This document shows, one piece after another, positions 3,195 through 27,122 of a stretch of DNA of 64,000 nt. Under the pieces are notes generated by a model. That model searched no databases, was not told where the DNA came from, and worked only from the letters and a program-made list of their open reading frames with translations. The first letter of the stretch is position 1, and every line of letters starts with the position of its first letter. This DNA is from a phage. Made by a program: the position numbers and the translations under genes. The stretch is taken from the sequence record PQ724393.1; one strand, written 5' to 3'.

Positions 3195-3202
3195 GATAAC
3201 CT

Positions 3203-3249
3203 CCAGTAGTTGATAGGTCTATAGTATCATTTCTACTGGAGATGTAAAC
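3203..3249 (-). promoter_or_regulatory. repeated promoter-hairpin element (GTTTAC-N17-TACTAT with flanking inverted repeat)
   Basis: core TTGATAGGTCTATAGTATCA on plus strand; inverted repeat CCAGTAG / CTACTGG encloses it; GTAAAC at 3244-3249. Confidence 0.5.
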
Positions 3250-4584: not shown

Positions 4585-4622
4585 TATATTCTCCGTTTCA
4601 CTCAGTAGATTTGATAGGTCCA

Positions 4623-4650
4623 TAATAACATGCTCTACGAGGTTGTAAAC
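4623..4650 (-). promoter_or_regulatory. sigma70-like promoter (GTTTAC-N16-TATTAT on minus strand)
   Basis: degenerate copy of the repeated element upstream of the ATPase gene. Confidence 0.45.
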
Positions 4651-4668
4651 ACTTTTTTGCACTAAACC

Positions 4669-4693
4669 CAAAAAAGGACCCCGAAGGGTCCTA
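4669..4693 (-). terminator. rho-independent terminator (minus strand)
   Basis: GGACCC-CGAA-GGGTCC hairpin followed by U-run on minus-strand RNA. Confidence 0.7.
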
Positions 4694-4915: not shown

Positions 4916-5897
4916 GATACACCTCTTCGACGAACTTGTCCCAGAACTTCATGTCCACCTTCGCAGGCATACCGTTCTTAGCAGCCCAGATGGCATTGGT
5001 TTCGACTTCGTCTACAATAGCTTCAAGTTCGGCCTGCACATCTTTAAAAGCATGTAACCCCTGTTTGATTTCAAGGATAAATGGCGCAGTACGTAAAGGG
5101 TATTGAAGGTCACCAGTTTGATAGATTTCCTTCAACTGGTATCCGGCCCTATAAGCATGACTCAGAGCTTTCCAGTCAATACCTTCATTGGCTTCTGCCT
5201 TACGAGCACGTTCACCATATTCGGCGTCAAGCTTATTCAGAGATTGCTTGAGCTCGATTAATGACAAAGTAGTCTGATATTTACGTCCGAGAACAGTATA
5301 GAACGTTTGTGGGCCTGTTTTCTCATGGTTATGGAATACCCATTCACAGAATTCGTTTTCAGGGAGCCGATGTTTGATATCTTCTACCTTAGTGCGACGA
5401 AGACGGTCCGGAATTCCTTCTTGATAATCAACCCATTGTTCAGGAATCTGGTTGACTATTGCCAATACACCACGCAGAGCAGCCAGTCGAGAACCTTTAA
5501 CACCATATTTGGAAGCTTGCTTGCGGACATACCCTAAATAGGCTTTCATGTTGGTTGTATAGAACCGTGAACGGTTGTCTTGGATAAATTTCCATACGTC
5601 AGGTAAATCGGATTTGACAACCAGGTCAGCCGGTGTGTGAATCATGTCCAGGGCAACGGTTTCGCCATCGGCTGCCAGTTTAAAGAAATATTTCAGACTA
5701 TAAAGTTCATGGTCAACATCATCTTTTGTATTTTTGGTAGCCGTGTTATTCGTGTTCAGGTTTGTATGGTTCATAGCCGTACCTAACAGAATATCACGCG
5801 GATGTGGAACAAAGATTTCTTTAAAATCGATATCAGATTCCGGAGTACTTGTTCCATAAAGGTGGGAGCCAAAATATCCCTTCATAACTGTTCTCAT
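4887..5897 (-). CDS. nucleotidyltransferase-fold protein (Pol-beta-like GS-x10-DxD motif near N-terminus), function unknown
   Basis: N-terminus GYFGSHLYGTSTPESDIDF matches [GS]-x9-13-DxD NTase signature; 336 aa. Confidence 0.6.
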   Translation of the reverse strand: MRTVMKGYFGSHLYGTSTPESDIDFKEIFVPHPRDILLGTAMNHTNLNTNNTATKNTKDDVDHELYSLKYFFKLAADGETVALDMIHTPADLVVKSDLPDVWKFIQDNRSRFYTTNMKAYLGYVRKQASKYGVKGSRLAALRGVLAIVNQIPEQWVDYQEGIPDRLRRTKVEDIKHRLPENEFCEWVFHNHEKTGPQTFYTVLGRKYQTTLSLIELKQSLNKLDAEYGERARKAEANEGIDWKALSHAYRAGYQLKEIYQTGDLQYPLRTAPFILEIKQGLHAFKDVQAELEAIVDEVETNAIWAAKNGMPAKVDMKFWDKFVEEVYLDNHNSYYR

Positions 5898-6700
5898 TAT
5901 TCACCTCTTTCATAGTCTTCAATAAATTGCATAATTAAACGTTGATAGTTGGATTTGGGATATCCTAATTTACTAATATAGGTTCCGAAAGCTCCACGCT
6001 TAGGCCTATTTAATTTAACCCATAAAGAATAAAGCAAATCATAATCTTGCCAATGTTTCCCTATTCTTTGCTTTGCTTTAGAAGCATCAGATTGCCTCTT
6101 TTTAGTCTCTGGATTATTTAGAGATTTCTTAACAGCATTCGAATGCCTTTCTCTAACATCAGGGCGTTTAAATGCTTCTTTAATAGCTTTAGAAATTTTC
6201 TCTTTAACTTCAGGACGGTTTTGAGCTTCTATTTGAGCCGCCGACATTTTATCTTTTATTTCTGGTAGACTCATAGTTATAGAACGTTTATTTCTATATT
6301 CTTCAGTCTTCCATATTTCTTTCATCGTATTTGAGTGAATTTCTGAAAATTTTTCTCTAACTAATTGATACCCTCTAGAAGTTAGTTTAAGATTTCTTCC
6401 TAAAGAATCCTCGCCAAAGTTATAAAATGACCACCAGGCATAAATTAATCCTGAAGAATCAGAATGAATTCTAGCTAGAAGCCAGTGTGCTATAAAATGT
6501 TCTCTAGCTGTCAACAGAACCAAATTATTAGGTTCATCACTCCCGCCAATACATGACGGGATTATATGATGGGACTCTGTATAAAAATTTAATTTGGATT
6601 TGTCTAATCCTCTAAGTTTACCTCTTTGGATTAGACTATCATAAAGCTTGGTATAATTCATTATGGATTTGTTTTGTCCTCGAAGTGGATTACAGGACAC
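5897..6700 (-). CDS. HNH homing endonuclease with NUMOD-like DNA-binding repeats (MobD-like)
   Basis: HHIIPSCIGGSDEPNNLVLLTAREHFIAHWLL HNH motif; repeated N-x-PE-x-K-x-K-x-SKA-x-K units; track start is GTG at 6700, an internal ATG near 6661 is an alternative. Confidence 0.8.
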   Translation of the reverse strand: MSCNPLRGQNKSIMNYTKLYDSLIQRGKLRGLDKSKLNFYTESHHIIPSCIGGSDEPNNLVLLTAREHFIAHWLLARIHSDSSGLIYAWWSFYNFGEDSLGRNLKLTSRGYQLVREKFSEIHSNTMKEIWKTEEYRNKRSITMSLPEIKDKMSAAQIEAQNRPEVKEKISKAIKEAFKRPDVRERHSNAVKKSLNNPETKKRQSDASKAKQRIGKHWQDYDLLYSLWVKLNRPKRGAFGTYISKLGYPKSNYQRLIMQFIEDYERGE

Positions 6701-9767: not shown

Positions 9768-10340
9768 TCAACTCGTTATTTCTATCCAGTGCTTCCTGCA
9801 CAATGACACGTAAGAATCGTTGCCACCTATAGAAACTTGGGCTCCGTCCTTAATTGCGACACCATCTTGGACCCTAGCAGTCATAGTAGCTTTACGGCCG
9901 CAATGGCACACACCTTTGTACTCAACGAGCTTATCTGCTGTAGCGAGTAATTCAGCAGAGCCAGGAAACAGTTTACCCTGAAAATCAGTTCTTAGTCCAT
10001 AACACATAACTGGAACATTATAATTGTCTACTATCTTCGCCAGTTGTTTTATCTGTGCAGGTTCTAAGAACTGTGCTTCATCCACAAATACGCAGTGGAT
10101 ATCTTTTTGAGATTCAGCCCAACGATAGAACTCGTATAGGTCCATATCCGGAGTCACTGCATTAGCCTCTTGACTAATCCCTATACGAGACGAAATGGTA
10201 TGGCTTGATTCTCTATTGTCTATCGCAGGCTTTAAAAGGAGTACGCCCATACCACGTTCTTTGTAGTTATGAGCTGCCGTTAGCAATGAAGCTGTCTTAC
10301 CTGAGTTCATTGCCGCATAGTGAAACATCAAACTTGCCAT
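9768..10340 (-). CDS. tk: thymidine kinase
   Basis: MASLMFHYAAMNSGKTASLL P-loop and near-colinear match to T4 Tk as recalled; C-terminal CHCG...CRKH zinc motif. Confidence 0.9.
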   Translation of the reverse strand: MASLMFHYAAMNSGKTASLLTAAHNYKERGMGVLLLKPAIDNRESSHTISSRIGISQEANAVTPDMDLYEFYRWAESQKDIHCVFVDEAQFLEPAQIKQLAKIVDNYNVPVMCYGLRTDFQGKLFPGSAELLATADKLVEYKGVCHCGRKATMTARVQDGVAIKDGAQVSIGGNDSYVSLCRKHWIEITS

Positions 10341-10349
10341 ATCACCTTC

Positions 10350-10535
10350 TTATTCTGTAATACTTTCCAGATAATTTTCTAAATCGTCTGAAGCCTTATT
10401 AAGGGCTTCTAGCGCTTTATAATAGTCTTCACGGGAGTAATATTCTGTATGAAGTTCTTCGTCGTATTCGCTTTTAGCATCAACAACAGTTTCAATCATA
10501 TCCAGAATTTTATTTTTCTGTTCTTTAGTAATCAT
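10350..10535 (-). CDS. hypothetical small acidic protein (61 aa)
   Basis: short ORF; tk.x position. Confidence 0.4.
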   Translation of the reverse strand: MITKEQKNKILDMIETVVDAKSEYDEELHTEYYSREDYYKALEALNKASDDLENYLESITE

Positions 10536-10543
10536 AATATACC

Positions 10544-10729
10544 CTAAAGCGTATTCACATAAGCAATTAATTCGTTTTCTTTCTCATCAAATCTATTAGC
10601 AAATTCTTCCAGACGTTCGGCATCTATCGGGCCGTATTCATCGTAAAAAGCGTTTGCTTCGGTATGTTCATCCAAAAGCTCATGAATAAGCTCAAACAAT
10701 CTACTTTTCTGACTAATACTTAAACTCAT
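10544..10729 (-). CDS. hypothetical small acidic protein (61 aa)
   Basis: short ORF; tk.x position. Confidence 0.4.
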   Translation of the reverse strand: MSLSISQKSRLFELIHELLDEHTEANAFYDEYGPIDAERLEEFANRFDEKENELIAYVNTL

Positions 10730-10953
10730 TTAGGTTCACCATATCGCACAAATTTAGGATGTTCGCAATAACCGGAATGAAAACCTTCACCCTTATGATT
10801 AGAACATCCTTTATTAGAACAGTACCACCAGTAATCATATTCGCAATTCATTTCATCATTGCATAAAGCTGCGATTACCGGCCATTCACATTTTTCACAT
10901 TTAGCCGTTTTAAGAATTCTAGCTTGGCTCATAACCATTGCACCTTTAAGCAA
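10726..10953 (-). CDS. Cys-rich small protein (75 aa), probable zinc ribbon
   Basis: CEKCEW...CNDEMNC...CSNKGC pattern. Confidence 0.45.
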   Translation of the reverse strand: MLKGAMVMSQARILKTAKCEKCEWPVIAALCNDEMNCEYDYWWYCSNKGCSNHKGEGFHSGYCEHPKFVRYGEPK

Positions 10954-11141
10954 TATTCTTCTACATGCTGTTTACGTTTATTTTTATCTATAAAAGTATA
11001 TTCAACATATTCACCGATATACCATTTATCAGTGTTGTGTTGACTTTTTATAGGGCATTTAGTTACTCGGGTTTCGGTCCAGCGCCGAATAATTTCAGCT
11101 TTATTTTTAGGGTCAAACGGATGCGGGTAATGTGCTTTCAT
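10929..11141 (-). CDS. hypothetical small protein (70 aa)
   Basis: short ORF in array. Confidence 0.4.
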   Translation of the reverse strand: MKAHYPHPFDPKNKAEIIRRWTETRVTKCPIKSQHNTDKWYIGEYVEYTFIDKNKRKQHVEEYCLKVQWL

Positions 11142-11592
11142 AATCCACCACTATTAAATCAATATCAGGGGTAAACATGTCGATTAATTTAGAAACCTTT
11201 TCCCAATCACCGCCAGCAATACCACAACCGATGCGAGGAATATAAATTCTTGGTTTAAACAAAAGGGTTTCTGCTTGTAGATTTAATTCTATCATACAGT
11301 TTACTAAAGCACCGTAATCAAGATTAGGGCCGGGTTCGTATTGGGTGTATAAATTATAGCACATTGCAAATCCATTAGGCTTATGTTTAAAAACAATAGA
11401 CATATCGCCTAATTTATCACGAGAACCGTATTCAGTAGTGGTCTTATCAATTTCTAAGATTTTAGGATAGGCTCTTGCTAATTGACCGGCCACGCCTGAA
11501 CCCATAGTATGAAAACAGTTGCACCCATGTGCAATAATATTACCTTGGAGAAACAGGGCGACGATATCGCCCTTAATATAATCAATAATCAT
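11113..11592 (-). CDS. macro-domain-like protein (putative ADP-ribose binding or hydrolase)
   Basis: GDIVALFLQGNIIAHGCNCFHTMGSGVAGQL parallels macro-domain GDIT...NAAN...GGGV(A/D)GAI pattern; later IPRIGCGIAGG parallels the distal macro motif; judged by eye only. Confidence 0.45.
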   Translation of the reverse strand: MIIDYIKGDIVALFLQGNIIAHGCNCFHTMGSGVAGQLARAYPKILEIDKTTTEYGSRDKLGDMSIVFKHKPNGFAMCYNLYTQYEPGPNLDYGALVNCMIELNLQAETLLFKPRIYIPRIGCGIAGGDWEKVSKLIDMFTPDIDLIVVDYESTLPASV

Positions 11593-11945
11593 TTAGAGTT
11601 TAATCCTCGGTTGTAGGAGTCAACGAGTCTGTCTACCATAGACGCGCACATTTCTTTGTACTTTTTATCAGACGGAACACATTCAGTAACGTTTAGACGT
11701 TGCTCGTATCTTTTAGAAAGAGTTTTCTCTTTCATTCGGCGATGCTCGACGTCGTTCTGTCCATCTTTAAAAGCAGCTGTTATTTTTGAACTGAATTCAA
11801 TAACGCATTCAGTATTACTCGGATGACAATAATCTTTTGCTGTACGGGTGGCATACTCAACAATTGAATTATTTGTATCATCAACTTGTGACGCTAATAC
11901 TCCCGGAGCAATCAACATAAGCGCTATAGTCATCTGCTTAATCAT
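11589..11945 (-). CDS. secreted or periplasmic small protein (118 aa)
   Basis: N-terminal signal-peptide-like segment MIKQMTIALMLIAPGVLAS. Confidence 0.5.
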   Translation of the reverse strand: MIKQMTIALMLIAPGVLASQVDDTNNSIVEYATRTAKDYCHPSNTECVIEFSSKITAAFKDGQNDVEHRRMKEKTLSKRYEQRLNVTECVPSDKKYKEMCASMVDRLVDSYNRGLNSK

Positions 11946-12485
11946 TTAATACACCGCCTCAAACATCTTTTTAGATTTTAGATAATTGGCCTTTTCTAGA
12001 ACTTCAGAAGCATATTTACTGCCTGCTTTGACGTCCCAGCCCGCATTATAAGAAGCAATCGCTTTTCTCAGGTCACCTTTGTGAACATCAATCCAATAAG
12101 ACAGTTCAATGTAGGCCCAAGAGGCACTGTTCTGTCGTTTTTGGACCATACGAATTATTTCTTTGTCTGACATCTTCCAACCTACCTGTTGAACACGACT
12201 TCTTAACGTAGGCAAGTAATTTTGGAACATGCCATAAGCATGGTGCTTATCTTTATTTAAACCCTGATTAATTCCGGCGGATGATTCCTGCCATAGTAAT
12301 CCGGCCATGATATATCCTAATCCTTTTTGATTAGGGTTTTCTTTGAACTTTCCCGACTTTTGGTATTGTTCACCGAAAGCATACGCATAATGCAAATTGT
12401 CGAGTTGCTCACTGTTGAAAGTAGGCTCTACGCTATAGGCAGACATACTAACTGTCAATAGTAAAGTGGCTAATACTTTTTTCAT
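11946..12485 (-). CDS. secreted protein (179 aa), possible lytic-transglycosylase-like fold
   Basis: signal peptide MKKVLATLLLTVSMSAYS; weak resemblance to SLT motifs around LLWQESSAG. Confidence 0.4.
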   Translation of the reverse strand: MKKVLATLLLTVSMSAYSVEPTFNSEQLDNLHYAYAFGEQYQKSGKFKENPNQKGLGYIMAGLLWQESSAGINQGLNKDKHHAYGMFQNYLPTLRSRVQQVGWKMSDKEIIRMVQKRQNSASWAYIELSYWIDVHKGDLRKAIASYNAGWDVKAGSKYASEVLEKANYLKSKKMFEAVY

Positions 12486-12497
12486 GAGACCTCATTA

Positions 12498-12956
12498 TTA
12501 AAGATAGATTACTTTCGTGCTGGTTTTACCTTCTAAACGTTTAGAGTTAACAAATGCCATACGACATTTTAATGAATATCCTTTATCAGGATGTTTACGA
12601 TCTACGGTCATACCCAACCATAAGGTTTTATCAGTAATCTCGAGACGCAGCGGACGATACACTTTACCTGGGACAATTTCAGATTCTATGTCAGGAAGAG
12701 GCTCCTGGATTAAAAATTCATGGATTTCTTTAACATGGTTATGGAGTTGCTTGAATAAAGCAAAAACGTATTTTTCGTCAATTTCACGTTGGATAGCACG
12801 GTCCAACAAGTGATTAGAGTACTTAATAAAGAAAGCTGGGACCCCGCTCTTGATGGCGGCTTTTTTGATGGACGCGTTAAGTTCACGAAATTCGGTTTCG
12901 AACTGACGACGTAATTTGTTGCGGCGGATGAATACTTCTGAATTAATTTCTGACAT
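12498..12956 (-). CDS. regB: RegB sequence-specific endoribonuclease
   Basis: MSEINSEVFIRRNKLRR...LDRAIQREIDE closely matches T4 RegB as recalled; start set at ATG 12956 with GGAG RBS. Confidence 0.85.
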   Translation of the reverse strand: MSEINSEVFIRRNKLRRQFETEFRELNASIKKAAIKSGVPAFFIKYSNHLLDRAIQREIDEKYVFALFKQLHNHVKEIHEFLIQEPLPDIESEIVPGKVYRPLRLEITDKTLWLGMTVDRKHPDKGYSLKCRMAFVNSKRLEGKTSTKVIYL

Positions 12957-12967
12957 TTTGTAATCTC

Positions 12968-13013
12968 CTGTAGTTGATAGGTCTATAGTATCATGTCTAC
13001 AGGAGATGTAAAC
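12968..13013 (-). promoter_or_regulatory. repeated promoter-hairpin element with 11-bp stem masking the regB SD
   Basis: minus strand GTTTAC-ATCTCCTGTAG-loop with TACTAT-CTACAGGAGAT then 7 nt then ATG; identical copy upstream of denV. Confidence 0.55.
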
Positions 13014-13018
13014 TGCTT

Positions 13019-13297
13019 TTAGTATTTTTCCTCGGGTTGGAAAACAGAACGACAGGCCCACATGGATGCTTCTTTCAAGCGTTCGATTGCCGTACGAATC
13101 TGGGTAATGCGTTCATGAGCCTGGTCTAGTTCTTGTTCAGAAACCTCTTCGGCATCTAAGTTCATATAATAGGTAACATGTTCTTCTTCTAATGCTTTAA
13201 AGATTAAGCCTAATCGAACTTCAGCATCTTTAATGGCATTCACTTTACTGATTTTATCGTCGGTATGTGACTTGTAACCTTTGATATCTTCAATCAT
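13019..13297 (-). CDS. hypothetical small protein (92 aa), vs.x position
   Basis: short ORF. Confidence 0.45.
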   Translation of the reverse strand: MIEDIKGYKSHTDDKISKVNAIKDAEVRLGLIFKALEEEHVTYYMNLDAEEVSEQELDQAHERITQIRTAIERLKEASMWACRSVFQPEEKY

Positions 13298-14888: not shown

Positions 14889-15293
14889 AGCCTTGCCATA
14901 GTGTTTGTACCAGGTAGGACGTTGTGCAATTTTTTCATCCAAACGGGTTTGTGAAATAGCGATAGAAGCTTCGTGAGGAGCATAATCACCACGGAATTCC
15001 TGAGGAATATCACTAATGTCCTGGACCGTAGTATCTTTGATATTAAAGCCACGTTTTAAACATTCGGCTATAAGCTCGATTTGACGCTTACGTAAAAATT
15101 CAAGCTTATCGTAAAAGAATGTAACATGGCCTGCGCCAAGGATAAAAGTAGGACTGATTTTGAAATCACGGACACGTTTACCATTAGCAACATGCTTACG
15201 AACTGCACCGAAAACACGTGGTAATTCACGATATTCAGCCATTAAGTGTTGGTCAGCCAATTCAGATACTAAGGTAAGGTTGATACGAGTCAT
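14877..15293 (-). CDS. denV: endonuclease V (pyrimidine dimer DNA glycosylase)
   Basis: 138 aa, [31 protein letters not shown]... essentially identical to T4 DenV as recalled. Confidence 0.95.
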
Positions 15294-15303
15294 TTTTAAT
15301 CTC

Positions 15304-15349
15304 CTGTAGTTGATAGGTCTATAGTATCATGTCTACAGGAGATGTAAAC
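15304..15349 (-). promoter_or_regulatory. repeated promoter-hairpin element with 11-bp stem masking the denV SD
   Basis: 46-bp identical to the regB copy; ATCTCCTGTAG / CTACAGGAGAT stem, GGAG in 3' arm. Confidence 0.55.
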
Positions 15350-15373
15350 AACTTTTATCAAGTATCGGCTTTA

Positions 15374-24178: not shown

Positions 24179-24457
24179 TTATTTCATATTATTGAAATAA
24201 TCTTCCGCATCAAAATCGTTATCATGATAAACTTTGGTAGACAATTTAACATAACCTTCGGCGGCGAACATATTAACCACAACCTTTACAGTATACCATT
24301 GTCCATCATCATTACCCATTACTGCATAGGTTTCAAATATGGGATGGTCATCACCGATAACTTTAATATCGTTAACTGTAGCACCAAATTCTTCAGGAAC
24401 GCATTTCATAAAGAAATTAAACAATTCACCATAATTATCCATTTTACTCTCCTTCAC
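24179..24457 (-). CDS. hypothetical small acidic protein (92 aa)
   Basis: ORF with GGAG RBS. Confidence 0.5.
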   Translation of the reverse strand: MKESKMDNYGELFNFFMKCVPEEFGATVNDIKVIGDDHPIFETYAVMGNDDGQWYTVKVVVNMFAAEGYVKLSTKVYHDNDFDAEDYFNNMK

Positions 24458-24477
24458 ACTGTTGTTTTGATAGGTCT

Positions 24478-24506
24478 ATAGTATCATGTTCTACGAAAGA
24501 GTAAAC
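24478..24506 (-). promoter_or_regulatory. repeated promoter-hairpin element (GTTTAC-N17-TACTAT)
   Basis: core TTGATAGGTCTATAGTATCA. Confidence 0.5.
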
Positions 24507-25589: not shown

Positions 25590-25665
25590 TTGGTATCCCG
25601 CCCTGGGATCGAACCAGGACCGCAAACTTAGAAGGATCGTATGCTATCCATTACACCAGCGGGAC
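25590..25665 (-). tRNA. tRNA-Arg (anticodon UCU)
   Basis: minus strand GTCCCGCTGGTGTAATGGATAGCATACGATCCTTCTAAGTTTGCGGTCCTGGTTCGATCCCAGGGCGGGATACCA; cloverleaf foldable by eye, anticodon loop CTTCTAAG. Confidence 0.8.
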
Positions 25666-25670
25666 ATAGT

Positions 25671-25747
25671 TGGTGACCCGGACCAGATTTGAACTGGTAA
25701 CCTTTCCCTTATGAGGGGACTGCTGCTAACCATTGAGCTACAGGGCC
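25671..25747 (-). tRNA. tRNA with CAU anticodon (Ile-type as in T4, or Met)
   Basis: minus strand GGCCCTGTAGCTCAATGGTTAGCAGCAGTCCCCTCATAAGGGAAAGGTTACCAGTTCAAATCTGGTCCGGGTCACCA; anticodon loop CCTCATAAG. Confidence 0.75.
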
Positions 25748-26870: not shown

Positions 26871-27068
26871 TTACTCACCTTTAGAGATTTTATCCATAAC
26901 GAAAGAAATTGAACCAATTAAGAATGCCACTACTAAAGAAATTATATTCTCGGAAGTTGAAAGCATATCGAGCATGAATCCTGCAAACATACTAAAGCCG
27001 AAAGCAGTAACAGCGGCCAGTGCAGTAACATTTCTAATTAATTCACAACGTTTCATTTTATTCTCCAA
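26871..27068 (-). CDS. small membrane protein (65 aa)
   Basis: two hydrophobic helices. Confidence 0.4.
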   Translation of the reverse strand: MENKMKRCELIRNVTALAAVTAFGFSMFAGFMLDMLSTSENIISLVVAFLIGSISFVMDKISKGE

Positions 27069-27092
27069 TCACTCATTTGTTTTGATAGGGCT

Positions 27093-27122
27093 ATAGTATC
27101 ACCACTAAAGCCCGTTGTAAAC
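27093..27122 (-). promoter_or_regulatory. repeated promoter-hairpin element (GTTTAC-N18-TACTAT; inverted repeat GGGCT / AGCCC)
   Basis: core TTGATAGGGCTATAGTATCA, one substitution compensated in the flanking repeat. Confidence 0.45.

What the first reader, a model, noticed from the sequence alone, without database searches (positions are those of the whole stretch)
11113..11592. Macro-domain-like protein in the tk-regB interval
The 159-aa product follows the macro-domain pattern (GDI[VT] ... NAAN-like HGCN ... GSGVAGQ ... IGCGIAGG). A macro domain in a phage that encodes ADP-ribosyltransferases, and that infects hosts with ADP-ribosylating defences, could be an ADP-ribose eraser or sensor.
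Basis: inference. Interest (0 to 1): 0.5.

Follow-up and report, generated by a model that had tools for sequence, protein, structure and literature searches.

The report
Phage Tk.4 macrodomain, anti-DarT2 eraser
The gene is a real macro-domain enzyme, but an ordinary one: it is this phage's copy of T4 gene tk.4, long annotated as a macro (A1pp) protein and recently shown in T4 to protect against the DNA-ADP-ribosylating defence DarTG2.

Summary
Window 11113-11592 (minus strand) encodes a 159-aa protein. It passes Pfam Macro (33.4 bits, cut-off 22), folds confidently as a macrodomain (pLDDT 94) and carries all four quoted motifs.

It is the syntenic orthologue of T4 Tk.4: 56% identity, in the gene order regB-vs.1-vs-tk.4-tk.3-tk. 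It is 95-97% identical to the proteins of JS98-like (Dhakavirus) phages. RefSeq already labels tk.4 "phosphatase; contains A1pp phosphatase motif".

A 2025 preprint (HIDEN-SEQ) showed that deleting T4 tk.4 sensitises T4 to DarTG2, and renamed the gene adfM.

One refinement came out of this work. At the position of the catalytic lysine of DarG (K80) and TARG1 (K84), the Tk.4 family has an invariant glutamine (Q84), as in Streptomyces SCO6735 (Q85). SCO6735 is a stand-alone macrodomain shown to remove thymidine-linked ADP-ribose from DNA. The PhiKZ protein also named AdfM is lysine-type.

The most likely mechanism is early-expressed, orphan-antitoxin-like hydrolysis of DarT2-made ADP-ribosyl-thymidine on phage ssDNA, by a Gln/Asn-positioned, water-mediated reaction. 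No Tk.4-family protein has been tested biochemically. Interest is low.

The parts
11113..11592 (-). tk.4 / adfM-type coding sequence, 159 aa; the stop codon is at 11113-11115. It is a single macrodomain with no extra domain.
   Evidence: ORF. Pfam Macro. PHROG 335. 56% identity to T4 Tk.4 over the full length. AF2 pLDDT 94.2.
11515..11529 (-). H22-G23-C24-N25-C26. It aligns with SCO6735 H24-V25-C26-N27. N25 is the conserved Asn that positions the catalytic Gln and the distal ribose.
   Evidence: Invariant H22, G23, N25, C26 in 70 homologues. Alignments. Mutational data for SCO6735 N27S and for PhiKZ gp104 N23A.
11482..11502 (-). G31-S-G-V-A-G-Q37, the first glycine-rich ADP-ribose (phosphate-binding) loop.
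   Evidence: G33 and A35 invariant, G31 nearly invariant. Aligned with the GxG loop of all reference macrodomains.
11341..11355 (-). N80-L-Y-T-Q84. Q84 sits at the position of the catalytic Lys of DarG (K80) and TARG1 (K84) and of the essential Gln85 of SCO6735.
   Evidence: MAFFT alignment and profile alignment agree. N80, Y82 and Q84 are invariant. The motif N-x-Y-[TS]-Q occurs in 115 of 120 homologues. The TARG1 sequence was verified against PDB 2lgr.
11209..11232 (-). I121-G-C-G-I-A-G-G128, the second glycine-rich (diphosphate-binding) loop. A126 lies at the position of TARG1 D125.
   Evidence: G122 and G124 invariant; A126, G127, G128 nearly invariant. Alignment.
11589..11945 (-). vs (valyl-tRNA synthetase modifier), the upstream neighbour. 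Its TGA stop overlaps the tk.4 ATG (ATGA at 11589-11592), which suggests the two are translated as one unit.
   Evidence: JS98 annotation.
10929..11141 (-). tk.3-like ORF, the downstream neighbour. It overlaps the 3' end of tk.4 by 29 nt.
   Evidence: JS98 annotation shows the same overlap (locus 12452-12480).
12985..13012 (-). Nearest upstream T4-type early-promoter cassette (TTTACA-16-TACTAT with TG), just 5' of regB. It is the likely start of the regB-vs.1-vs-tk.4 transcript (inferred).
   Evidence: Promoter scan. The same cassette recurs upstream of other ORFs in the window. No convincing terminator lies between it and tk.4. Function was not tested.

Best explanation
This is the orthologue of phage T4 Tk.4 (recently named AdfM) in a JS98-like T-even phage. 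It is a stand-alone, 159-aa macrodomain of the ALC1-like class (the group holding TARG1, DarG, SCO6735 and Poa1p).

Its most likely function is that of an orphan antitoxin. It is probably transcribed early, from the promoter upstream of regB. It would bind ADP-ribose attached by a host DarT2 toxin to thymidine in single-stranded phage DNA and hydrolyse the N-glycosidic bond. That would restore replicable DNA and let the phage grow on DarTG2-carrying hosts.

The chemistry is predicted to be of the SCO6735 type rather than the DarG type. An invariant Gln (Q84), held in place by an invariant Asn (N25), positions the distal ribose, and a backbone-held water performs the reaction. There is no catalytic lysine.

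Basis of each step:
- Shown here: macrodomain identity, orthology and synteny with T4 tk.4, and the active-site residue pattern.
- Shown elsewhere: the T4 knockout phenotype, and SCO6735 activity on dT-ADPr DNA.
- Inferred: that this particular protein has the same substrate and uses the Gln mechanism.
For: Macrodomain identity:
- Pfam Macro is hit above its cut-off.
- The AF2 model has pLDDT 94.2.
- Foldseek's top hits are TARG1, Poa1p, BT1257 and DarG, all at probability 1.00.
- The best NCBIfam and PADLOC families are both DarG, matching its macro part only.

Orthology:
- 56% identity to T4 Tk.4 over the full length.
- The same neighbours as in T4 and JS98.

Function of the orthologue:
- tk.4 was the single significant hit of a T4 transposon screen on a DarTG2 host.
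- A clean tk.4 knockout sensitised T4 to DarTG2 (bioRxiv 10.1101/2025.11.20.689424).

Mechanism:
- Q84 aligns with SCO6735 Q85, DarG K80 and TARG1 K84 in both MAFFT and profile alignments.
- In SCO6735, Q85A abolishes and N27S nearly abolishes removal of thymidine-linked ADP-ribose from DNA, and SCO6735 protects cells from DarT (PMC9411070).
- H22, G23, N25, Q84 and the Gly loops are invariant in 70 homologues.
- They are also kept in 7 of 7 distant phage homologues from other lineages.
- A different phage macrodomain, PhiKZ gp104, has been shown in vitro to strip DarT2-made ADP-ribose from DNA (PMC13309987). The strategy therefore exists in phages.
Against: - No member of the Tk.4 family has been assayed biochemically. 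The T4 evidence is genetic and comes from a preprint.
- The T4 protein is only 56% identical to this one.
- The DarG catalytic lysine is absent.
- The SCO6735 residues implicated in DNA binding are not conserved. K34 corresponds to S32 here, and the K89-bearing mobile loop is about 5-6 residues shorter.
- The protein is acidic (pI 5.07). This is not discriminating, because the active PhiKZ AdfM has pI 5.05.
- The N-terminal half is also very similar to yeast Poa1p, an ADP-ribose-1''-phosphate phosphatase (E 2.5e-10), so other substrates cannot be excluded.
- The residue-level equivalences rest on sequence alignments. The fold searches gave scores only.
Confidence: 0.75

Rival explanations
1. 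It mainly erases protein ADP-ribosylation. It would remove Glu/Asp-linked ADP-ribose placed by host defence transferases, or tune the marks placed by the phage's own Alt/ModA/ModB enzymes. DNA repair would be a side activity.
For: TARG1 and SCO6735, both close in fold and profile score, remove ADP-ribose from proteins as well as from DNA.
Against: The only phenotype known for the orthologue is specific to DarTG2, a DNA-modifying system. From general knowledge, Alt, ModA and ModB modify arginine, a linkage not known to be cleaved by ALC1-like macrodomains. No transferase gene is adjacent.
Confidence: 0.1
2. It protects without catalysis. It would bind and block DarT2 itself, or shield ADP-ribosylated DNA.
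For: Catalytically dead SCO6735 Q85A, DarG K80A and TARG1 K84A all inhibit DarT in vitro, and SCO6735 does so most strongly.
Against: Residues needed only for catalysis and ribose positioning (N25, Q84) are invariant across the family and across distant phage lineages. The protein lacks the C-terminal DarT-binding domain of DarG: it is 159 aa against a 338-position DarG model.
Confidence: 0.07
3. It is what the database label says, a 'phosphatase'. It would dephosphorylate ADP-ribose-1''-phosphate, as yeast Poa1p does, or otherwise process free ADP-ribose derivatives (O-acetyl-ADP-ribose, NAD-salvage intermediates).
Against: The 'phosphatase' label comes only from the old domain name A1pp. Nothing in the neighbourhood makes ADP-ribose-1''-phosphate. 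The match to the YmdB-type deacetylase model is negligible (17 bits against a cut-off of 291). The T4 phenotype is explained by DNA de-ADP-ribosylation.
Confidence: 0.06

Closest known systems
Phage T4 Tk.4 (NP_049723; renamed AdfM, anti-DarT factor Macrodomain, in bioRxiv 10.1101/2025.11.20.689424)
   Same: Same length class (155 against 159 aa), 56% identity end to end, and the same position between vs and tk.3. The same invariant residues are present, including Q84. Same PHROG family.
   Different: 44% of residues differ. This copy reads IGCGIAGG where T4 has IGAGIGKG. It also has a 4-aa C-terminal extension that overlaps tk.3 by 29 nt. The anti-DarTG2 phenotype has been shown only for the T4 allele.
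Streptomyces coelicolor SCO6735 (PDB 5e3b) and Bacteroides BT1257 (2afc/2fg1): stand-alone Gln-type ALC1-like macrodomains
   Different: Identity is only 27-28%. The DNA-contacting K34 and K89 of SCO6735 are absent, and the mobile loop after the Gln is about 5-6 residues shorter. This protein is acidic rather than basic. It is phage-borne rather than chromosomal.
DarG antitoxin macrodomain (T. aquaticus 5m31, M. tuberculosis 5m3i; NCBIfam NF048014)
   Different: There is no C-terminal DarT-binding domain and no adjacent darT gene. The catalytic Lys80 is replaced by Gln. The score of 28 bits is far below the family cut-off of 250.
PhiKZ gp104, also named AdfM (Cell Rep 2026, PMC13309987)
   Same: It is a phage-encoded stand-alone macrodomain that counters DarTG2. 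Its removal of DarT2 marks from DNA has been shown in vitro.
   Different: It is a different sub-lineage. It is DarG-like with the lysine (FPTKD). It shares only 18% identity with the window protein (BLASTP E 0.003) and gets the lowest profile score of the references, 36 bits. It is imported into a phage nucleus, which T-even phages lack.
Human TARG1/OARD1 (PDB 4j5r, 2lgr)
   Same: It is the top Foldseek hit (E 1.2e-9, TM 0.72-0.82). It belongs to the same class and also removes thymidine-linked DNA ADP-ribose (title and abstract of PMC8501950).
   Different: The catalytic dyad K84/D125 is replaced here by Q84/A126.

Membership tests
Pfam Macro (PF01661) | Profile score above the curated gathering threshold | tested here: met
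   33.4 bits against a cut-off of 22, E 5e-8, covering profile positions 2-117 of 118.
Pfam Macro (PF01661) | Macrodomain alpha/beta fold | tested here: met
T4 Tk.4 / AdfM orthologous group | Full-length similarity to T4 Tk.4 | tested here: met
   56% identity over 155 aa with no gaps, E 1e-68. PHROG 335 at E 1e-70.
T4 Tk.4 / AdfM orthologous group | Conserved position between vs and tk.3 in the tk-regB block | tested here: met
   T4 order. JS98 order. Collinearity of the window with JS98.
T4 Tk.4 / AdfM orthologous group | Needed for growth on DarTG2-carrying hosts | not testable with these tools
   Shown only for T4. Testing it here needs a knockout of this phage.
DarG antitoxin (NCBIfam NF048014) | Score above the family cut-off, with two-domain architecture (macro plus C-terminal DarT-binding domain) | tested here: not met
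   28.1 bits against a cut-off of 250. Only model positions 1-142 of 338 are matched, and the protein ends at 159 aa.
DarG antitoxin (NCBIfam NF048014) | Encoded next to a darT (DUF4433) toxin gene | tested here: not met
   The neighbours are vs and tk.3. A genuine DarTG locus fetched for comparison shows DUF4433 directly upstream of the macro gene.
DarG antitoxin (NCBIfam NF048014) | Catalytic lysine (K80 in T. aquaticus and M. tuberculosis DarG) | tested here: not met
   Gln84 occupies that column in both MAFFT and HMM alignments.
SCO6735-type (Gln-type) ALC1-like macrodomain | Essential Gln at the TARG1-K84 / DarG-K80 position, held by the conserved Asn | tested here: met
   Q84 and N25 are invariant in 70 homologues and align with SCO6735 Q85 and N27. 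Their roles are described.
SCO6735-type (Gln-type) ALC1-like macrodomain | Extended mobile loop with DNA-contacting lysines (K89, K94) and K34 | tested here: not met
   The loop after Q84 is QYEPGPN, against QHGMKTGSKGAP in SCO6735. K34 corresponds to S32.
SCO6735-type (Gln-type) ALC1-like macrodomain | Hydrolysis of thymidine-linked ADP-ribose on ssDNA | not testable with these tools
   Needs an enzyme assay.
Poa1p-type ADP-ribose-1''-phosphate phosphatase | Residues probed in the deposited Poa1p mutants (H23, S30, F152) | tested here: inconclusive
   H22 aligns with Poa1p H23, and T29 with S30 (alignment). The mutant names come from PDB titles. The F152 equivalent could not be assigned, and the primary paper is not in the library.

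The most novel reading that the evidence does not exclude
T-even phages and nucleus-forming jumbo phages recruited two different sub-lineages of ALC1-like macrodomains for the same job: a Gln-type (Tk.4, SCO6735-like) and a Lys-type (PhiKZ gp104, DarG-like). The Gln-type Tk.4 family occurs in about 2,700 phage genome records across many lineages. Like SCO6735 and TARG1, it may be a broad-spectrum eraser acting on DNA-thymidine, protein Glu/Asp and perhaps RNA or free ADP-ribose derivatives. If so, it would neutralise more ADP-ribosylating defences than DarTG2 alone.
Probability: 0.3. Interest if true: 0.45.

Novelty: already known. Interest (0 to 1): 0.2.

Why it matters
ADP-ribosylation of phage DNA by DarT toxins is an established bacterial defence, and phage-encoded erasers decide host range. 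This gene tells us that the phage very probably resists DarTG2-carrying E. coli or Shigella hosts, which is useful when choosing or engineering therapeutic T-even phages.

The one point beyond the literature I could read is the active site. The T-even AdfM has the SCO6735-type glutamine, not the DarG lysine. This predicts a different catalytic mechanism, and perhaps a different inhibitor and substrate profile, from DarG and from PhiKZ AdfM. It would be cheap to test. It does not open a new category.

Tried and rejected
- The promoter and terminator scan around the gene found no more sites than shuffled controls: 10 against 12.6 promoter-like sites and 4 against 2.7 terminator-like sites. Only the cassette upstream of regB gained support, and that came from its recurrence elsewhere in the window.
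- A truncated query against PDB (aa 40-159), meant to expose the SCO6735 and DarG alignments, showed only the C-terminal loop. I instead recovered the reference sequences by querying PDB with a plasmid DarG and a Streptomyces SCO6735 homologue.
- Net charge and pI, tried as a test of DNA binding, did not discriminate. The window protein has pI 5.07, but the biochemically active PhiKZ AdfM has pI 5.05.
- I looked for a darT partner next to non-T4 homologues and found none. The Pelagimonas chromosomal copy is orphan, and another copy sits among phage nucleotide-metabolism genes.
- I looked for a second macrodomain gene in the window and found none. The next best six-frame hit has E 0.31.
- The Poa1p structure paper is not in the library, so the roles of its H23 and S30 could not be checked.
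- The CmdTAC paper mentions macrodomains only in its reference list. It gave no evidence either way on RNA ADP-ribosylation.

Full report
**Observation**

The window has an ATG-started ORF at 11113..11592 on the minus strand, encoding 159 aa.

The gene lies between thymidine kinase (9768..10340) and regB (12498..12956). This stretch is collinear with phage JS98 at about 95% nucleotide identity, in the order regB, vs.1, vs, tk.4, tk.3, orf102, tk.2, tk.

The tk.4 ATG overlaps the TGA stop of vs (ATGA at 11589-11592), and its 3' end overlaps the tk.3 ORF by 29 nt. Against the JS98 allele there are 17 synonymous and 5 non-synonymous codon differences, so the ORF is a gene under purifying selection.

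**Is it a macrodomain?**

Yes. The evidence:
- Pfam Macro (PF01661) is matched over nearly the whole profile, at 33.4 bits against a curated cut-off of 22.
- PHROG 335 is matched at E 1e-70.
- An AlphaFold2 model built on a 70-sequence alignment has mean pLDDT 94.2 and pTM 0.89.
- Foldseek against PDB returns TARG1, Poa1p, BT1257 and DarG macrodomains first, all at probability 1.00.

The protein therefore belongs to what the SCO6735 paper calls the ALC1-like class. It is the only macrodomain ORF in the 64-kb window.

**What gene is it?**

It is tk.4. The T4 protein Tk.4 is 56% identical over its full length, with no gaps, and sits in the same place between vs and tk.3. RefSeq records of both T4 and JS98 already describe tk.4 as "phosphatase; Tk.4; contains A1pp phosphatase motif". 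A1pp is the old name of the macro domain. Several GenBank records call the orthologue "macro domain protein".

Near-identical proteins (95-97.5%) exist in many deposited Dhakavirus-like phages. tblastn finds relatives in 2,772 phage records. A published survey reports macro domains in 41% of myoviruses (PMC9503650). The presence of the domain is therefore not new.

**What does it do?**

A November 2025 preprint used transposon sequencing of T4 (HIDEN-SEQ). It found tk.4 as the single significant hit on a host expressing DarTG2, confirmed that a clean tk.4 knockout becomes DarTG2-sensitive, and renamed the gene adfM. It proposed, without biochemistry, that the protein removes ADP-ribose from DNA as the DarG antitoxin does.

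In agreement, the best NCBIfam and PADLOC families for both the window protein and T4 Tk.4 are DarG. Only its N-terminal macro part is matched, and far below the family cut-off (28 bits against 250).

An independent 2026 paper gave the same name, AdfM, to PhiKZ gp104. It showed in vitro that gp104 strips DarT2-made ADP-ribose from a TNTC oligonucleotide, and that an N23A mutant is impaired (PMC13309987). That paper does not mention Tk.4.

**Active site**

I recovered the sequences of T. aquaticus and M. tuberculosis DarG macrodomains, SCO6735 and BT1257 from PDB alignments. I verified human TARG1 against 2lgr and translated PhiKZ gp104 from the paper.

A MAFFT alignment and a profile alignment with an HMM of the Tk.4 family agree on these equivalences:

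| Window residue | SCO6735 | DarG | TARG1 | PhiKZ gp104 |
|---|---|---|---|---|
| H22 | H24 | – | – | – |
| N25 | N27 | N22 | – | N23 |
| Q84 | Q85 | K80 | K84 | – |
| A126 | – | – | D125 | – |

H22, G23, N25, C26, N80, Y82, Q84, G122, G124 and W130 are invariant in 70 homologues. The N-x-Y-[TS]-Q motif is present in 115 of the 120 best database homologues. In seven of seven sampled distant phage homologues the Gln and the His-x-x-Asn-Cys motif are kept, in a slightly looser form of the motif (N-x-[YC]-[TG]-Q). These came from Felixounavirus, Pakpunavirus, Kuttervirus, a Vibrio Demerecviridae phage, an Acinetobacter phage, a Klebsiella jumbo phage and an E. coli 'plasmid'.

SCO6735 is the one biochemically studied enzyme with this Gln. 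According to PMC9411070:
- It cleaves thymidine-linked ADP-ribose from DNA.
- Q85A abolishes the activity and N27S nearly abolishes it.
- A backbone-held water is proposed as the proton donor.
- The protein protects Streptomyces from DarT.

The T-even AdfM is therefore a Gln-type enzyme. PhiKZ gp104 is DarG-like and lysine-type (FPTKD), only 18% identical, and the weakest profile match among the references. Two proteins that now share a name come from different sub-lineages.

**Mechanism proposed**

The nearest upstream promoter-like element is a T4-type early-promoter cassette just 5' of regB (12985-13012, TTTACA-16-TACTAT). The same cassette recurs in front of several other ORFs in the window. 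No convincing terminator lies between it and tk.4, and the tk.4 start is coupled to vs.

I infer early co-expression with regB, vs.1 and vs. The protein would then bind ADP-ribosyl-thymidine on single-stranded phage DNA and hydrolyse it, using the Q84/N25-positioned, water-mediated chemistry of SCO6735. It would act as an orphan antitoxin with no toxin-binding domain. Confidence is about 0.75.

**Caveats**

- No Tk.4-family protein has been assayed.
- The T4 allele is 56% identical, and the evidence for it is a preprint.
- The SCO6735 lysines implicated in DNA contact (K34, K89) are missing, and the loop after the Gln is shorter.
- The N-terminal half is nearly as similar to yeast Poa1p, an ADP-ribose-1''-phosphate phosphatase, as to anything else.
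- In one Vibrio phage the homologue sits among NAD-salvage genes.

**Rivals**

- Protein-ADP-ribose eraser as the main role (confidence 0.10).
- Non-catalytic DarT2 blocker or binder (0.07).
- Small-molecule ADP-ribose phosphatase or deacetylase (0.06).

The first is plausible as a side activity, because SCO6735 and TARG1 are dual-substrate. The second is disfavoured by the invariance of residues that matter for catalysis. The third rests mostly on a legacy label.

**Membership**

The protein is a member of Pfam Macro and of the Tk.4/AdfM orthologous group. It is not a DarG family member: it has no C-terminal domain, no adjacent darT and no catalytic Lys, and it scores far below the cut-off. 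It shares the defining Gln/Asn pair with SCO6735 but not that enzyme's extended lysine-bearing loop. In short, it works like the DarG macrodomain and is built like a trimmed SCO6735.

**Verdict**

But the gene is already known, annotated and functionally assigned in T4. The only added value is the observation that the T-even AdfM is Gln-type. Interest is 0.2.

Noticed in passing
window 5897-6700 (-): A 267-aa HNH homing-endonuclease-like ORF carrying the motif HHIIPSCIGGSDEPNNLVLLTAREH. It matches the T4 nrdC.11-mobD region at about 76% nucleotide identity. It has no counterpart in the closest relative JS98, whose flanks join directly. It looks like a mobD-type mobile insertion present in this phage but absent from JS98.
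   Followed up: partly
window 3197-3249, 4612-4687, 12954-13039, 15291-15357, 24440-24486, 27047-27122: A repeated 60-80-nt cassette sits in front of several minus-strand ORFs, including regB. It reads GTTTACA-N17-TACTAT-AGACCTATCAA...GGAG...ATG. It looks like a T4-type early promoter plus a conserved 5' leader, of the kind proposed to mediate modular shuffling in T4-type genomes.
   Followed up: partly
window 10350-10729 (-): Two adjacent 61-aa acidic ORFs, tk.1-like and tk.2-like. The first (10350..10535) lies in a stretch of about 190 bp with no match in JS98.
   Followed up: no
window 10726-10953 (-): A 75-aa Cys-rich ORF (CEKCEWP...C...C...C...C), possibly a zinc-binding protein. It corresponds to JS98 orf102 (RB32 ORF111c-like), which has no assigned function.
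   Followed up: no
L013 (Vibrio phage Athena, NC_055851 106271-106984): The Tk.4-family homologue lies between ribose-phosphate pyrophosphokinase and nicotinamide phosphoribosyltransferase genes. This is an NAD-salvage context. It hints that some family members handle free ADP-ribose derivatives.
   Followed up: no
L003 (E. coli 'plasmid' pRHB39-C03_2, CP057073 14856-25308): A 137-kb non-mobilizable 'plasmid' carries a 43%-identical Tk.4 homologue. All 21 annotated products in the 10-kb stretch fetched are hypothetical.
   Followed up: no
window 25591-25747 (-): Only two tRNA genes are found in the window, tRNA-Arg(TCT) and tRNA-Met(CAT), and they are adjacent. From memory, T4 has eight tRNA genes in the equivalent region.
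   Followed up: no
literature, T2 tk.4: A June 2026 preprint reports that the T2 tk.4 mRNA is captured with the host sRNA ArcZ on Hfq (RIL-seq) and that the protein is detected in infected cells. It mislabels tk.4 as 'putative thymidine kinase' (bioRxiv 10.64898/2026.06.19.733364).
   Followed up: no
literature, gene naming: Two unrelated-lineage phage macrodomains were independently named AdfM within months of each other: T4 Tk.4 (Gln-type) and PhiKZ gp104 (Lys-type, DarG-like). The PhiKZ paper states that no macrodomain Adf had been reported.
   Followed up: yes
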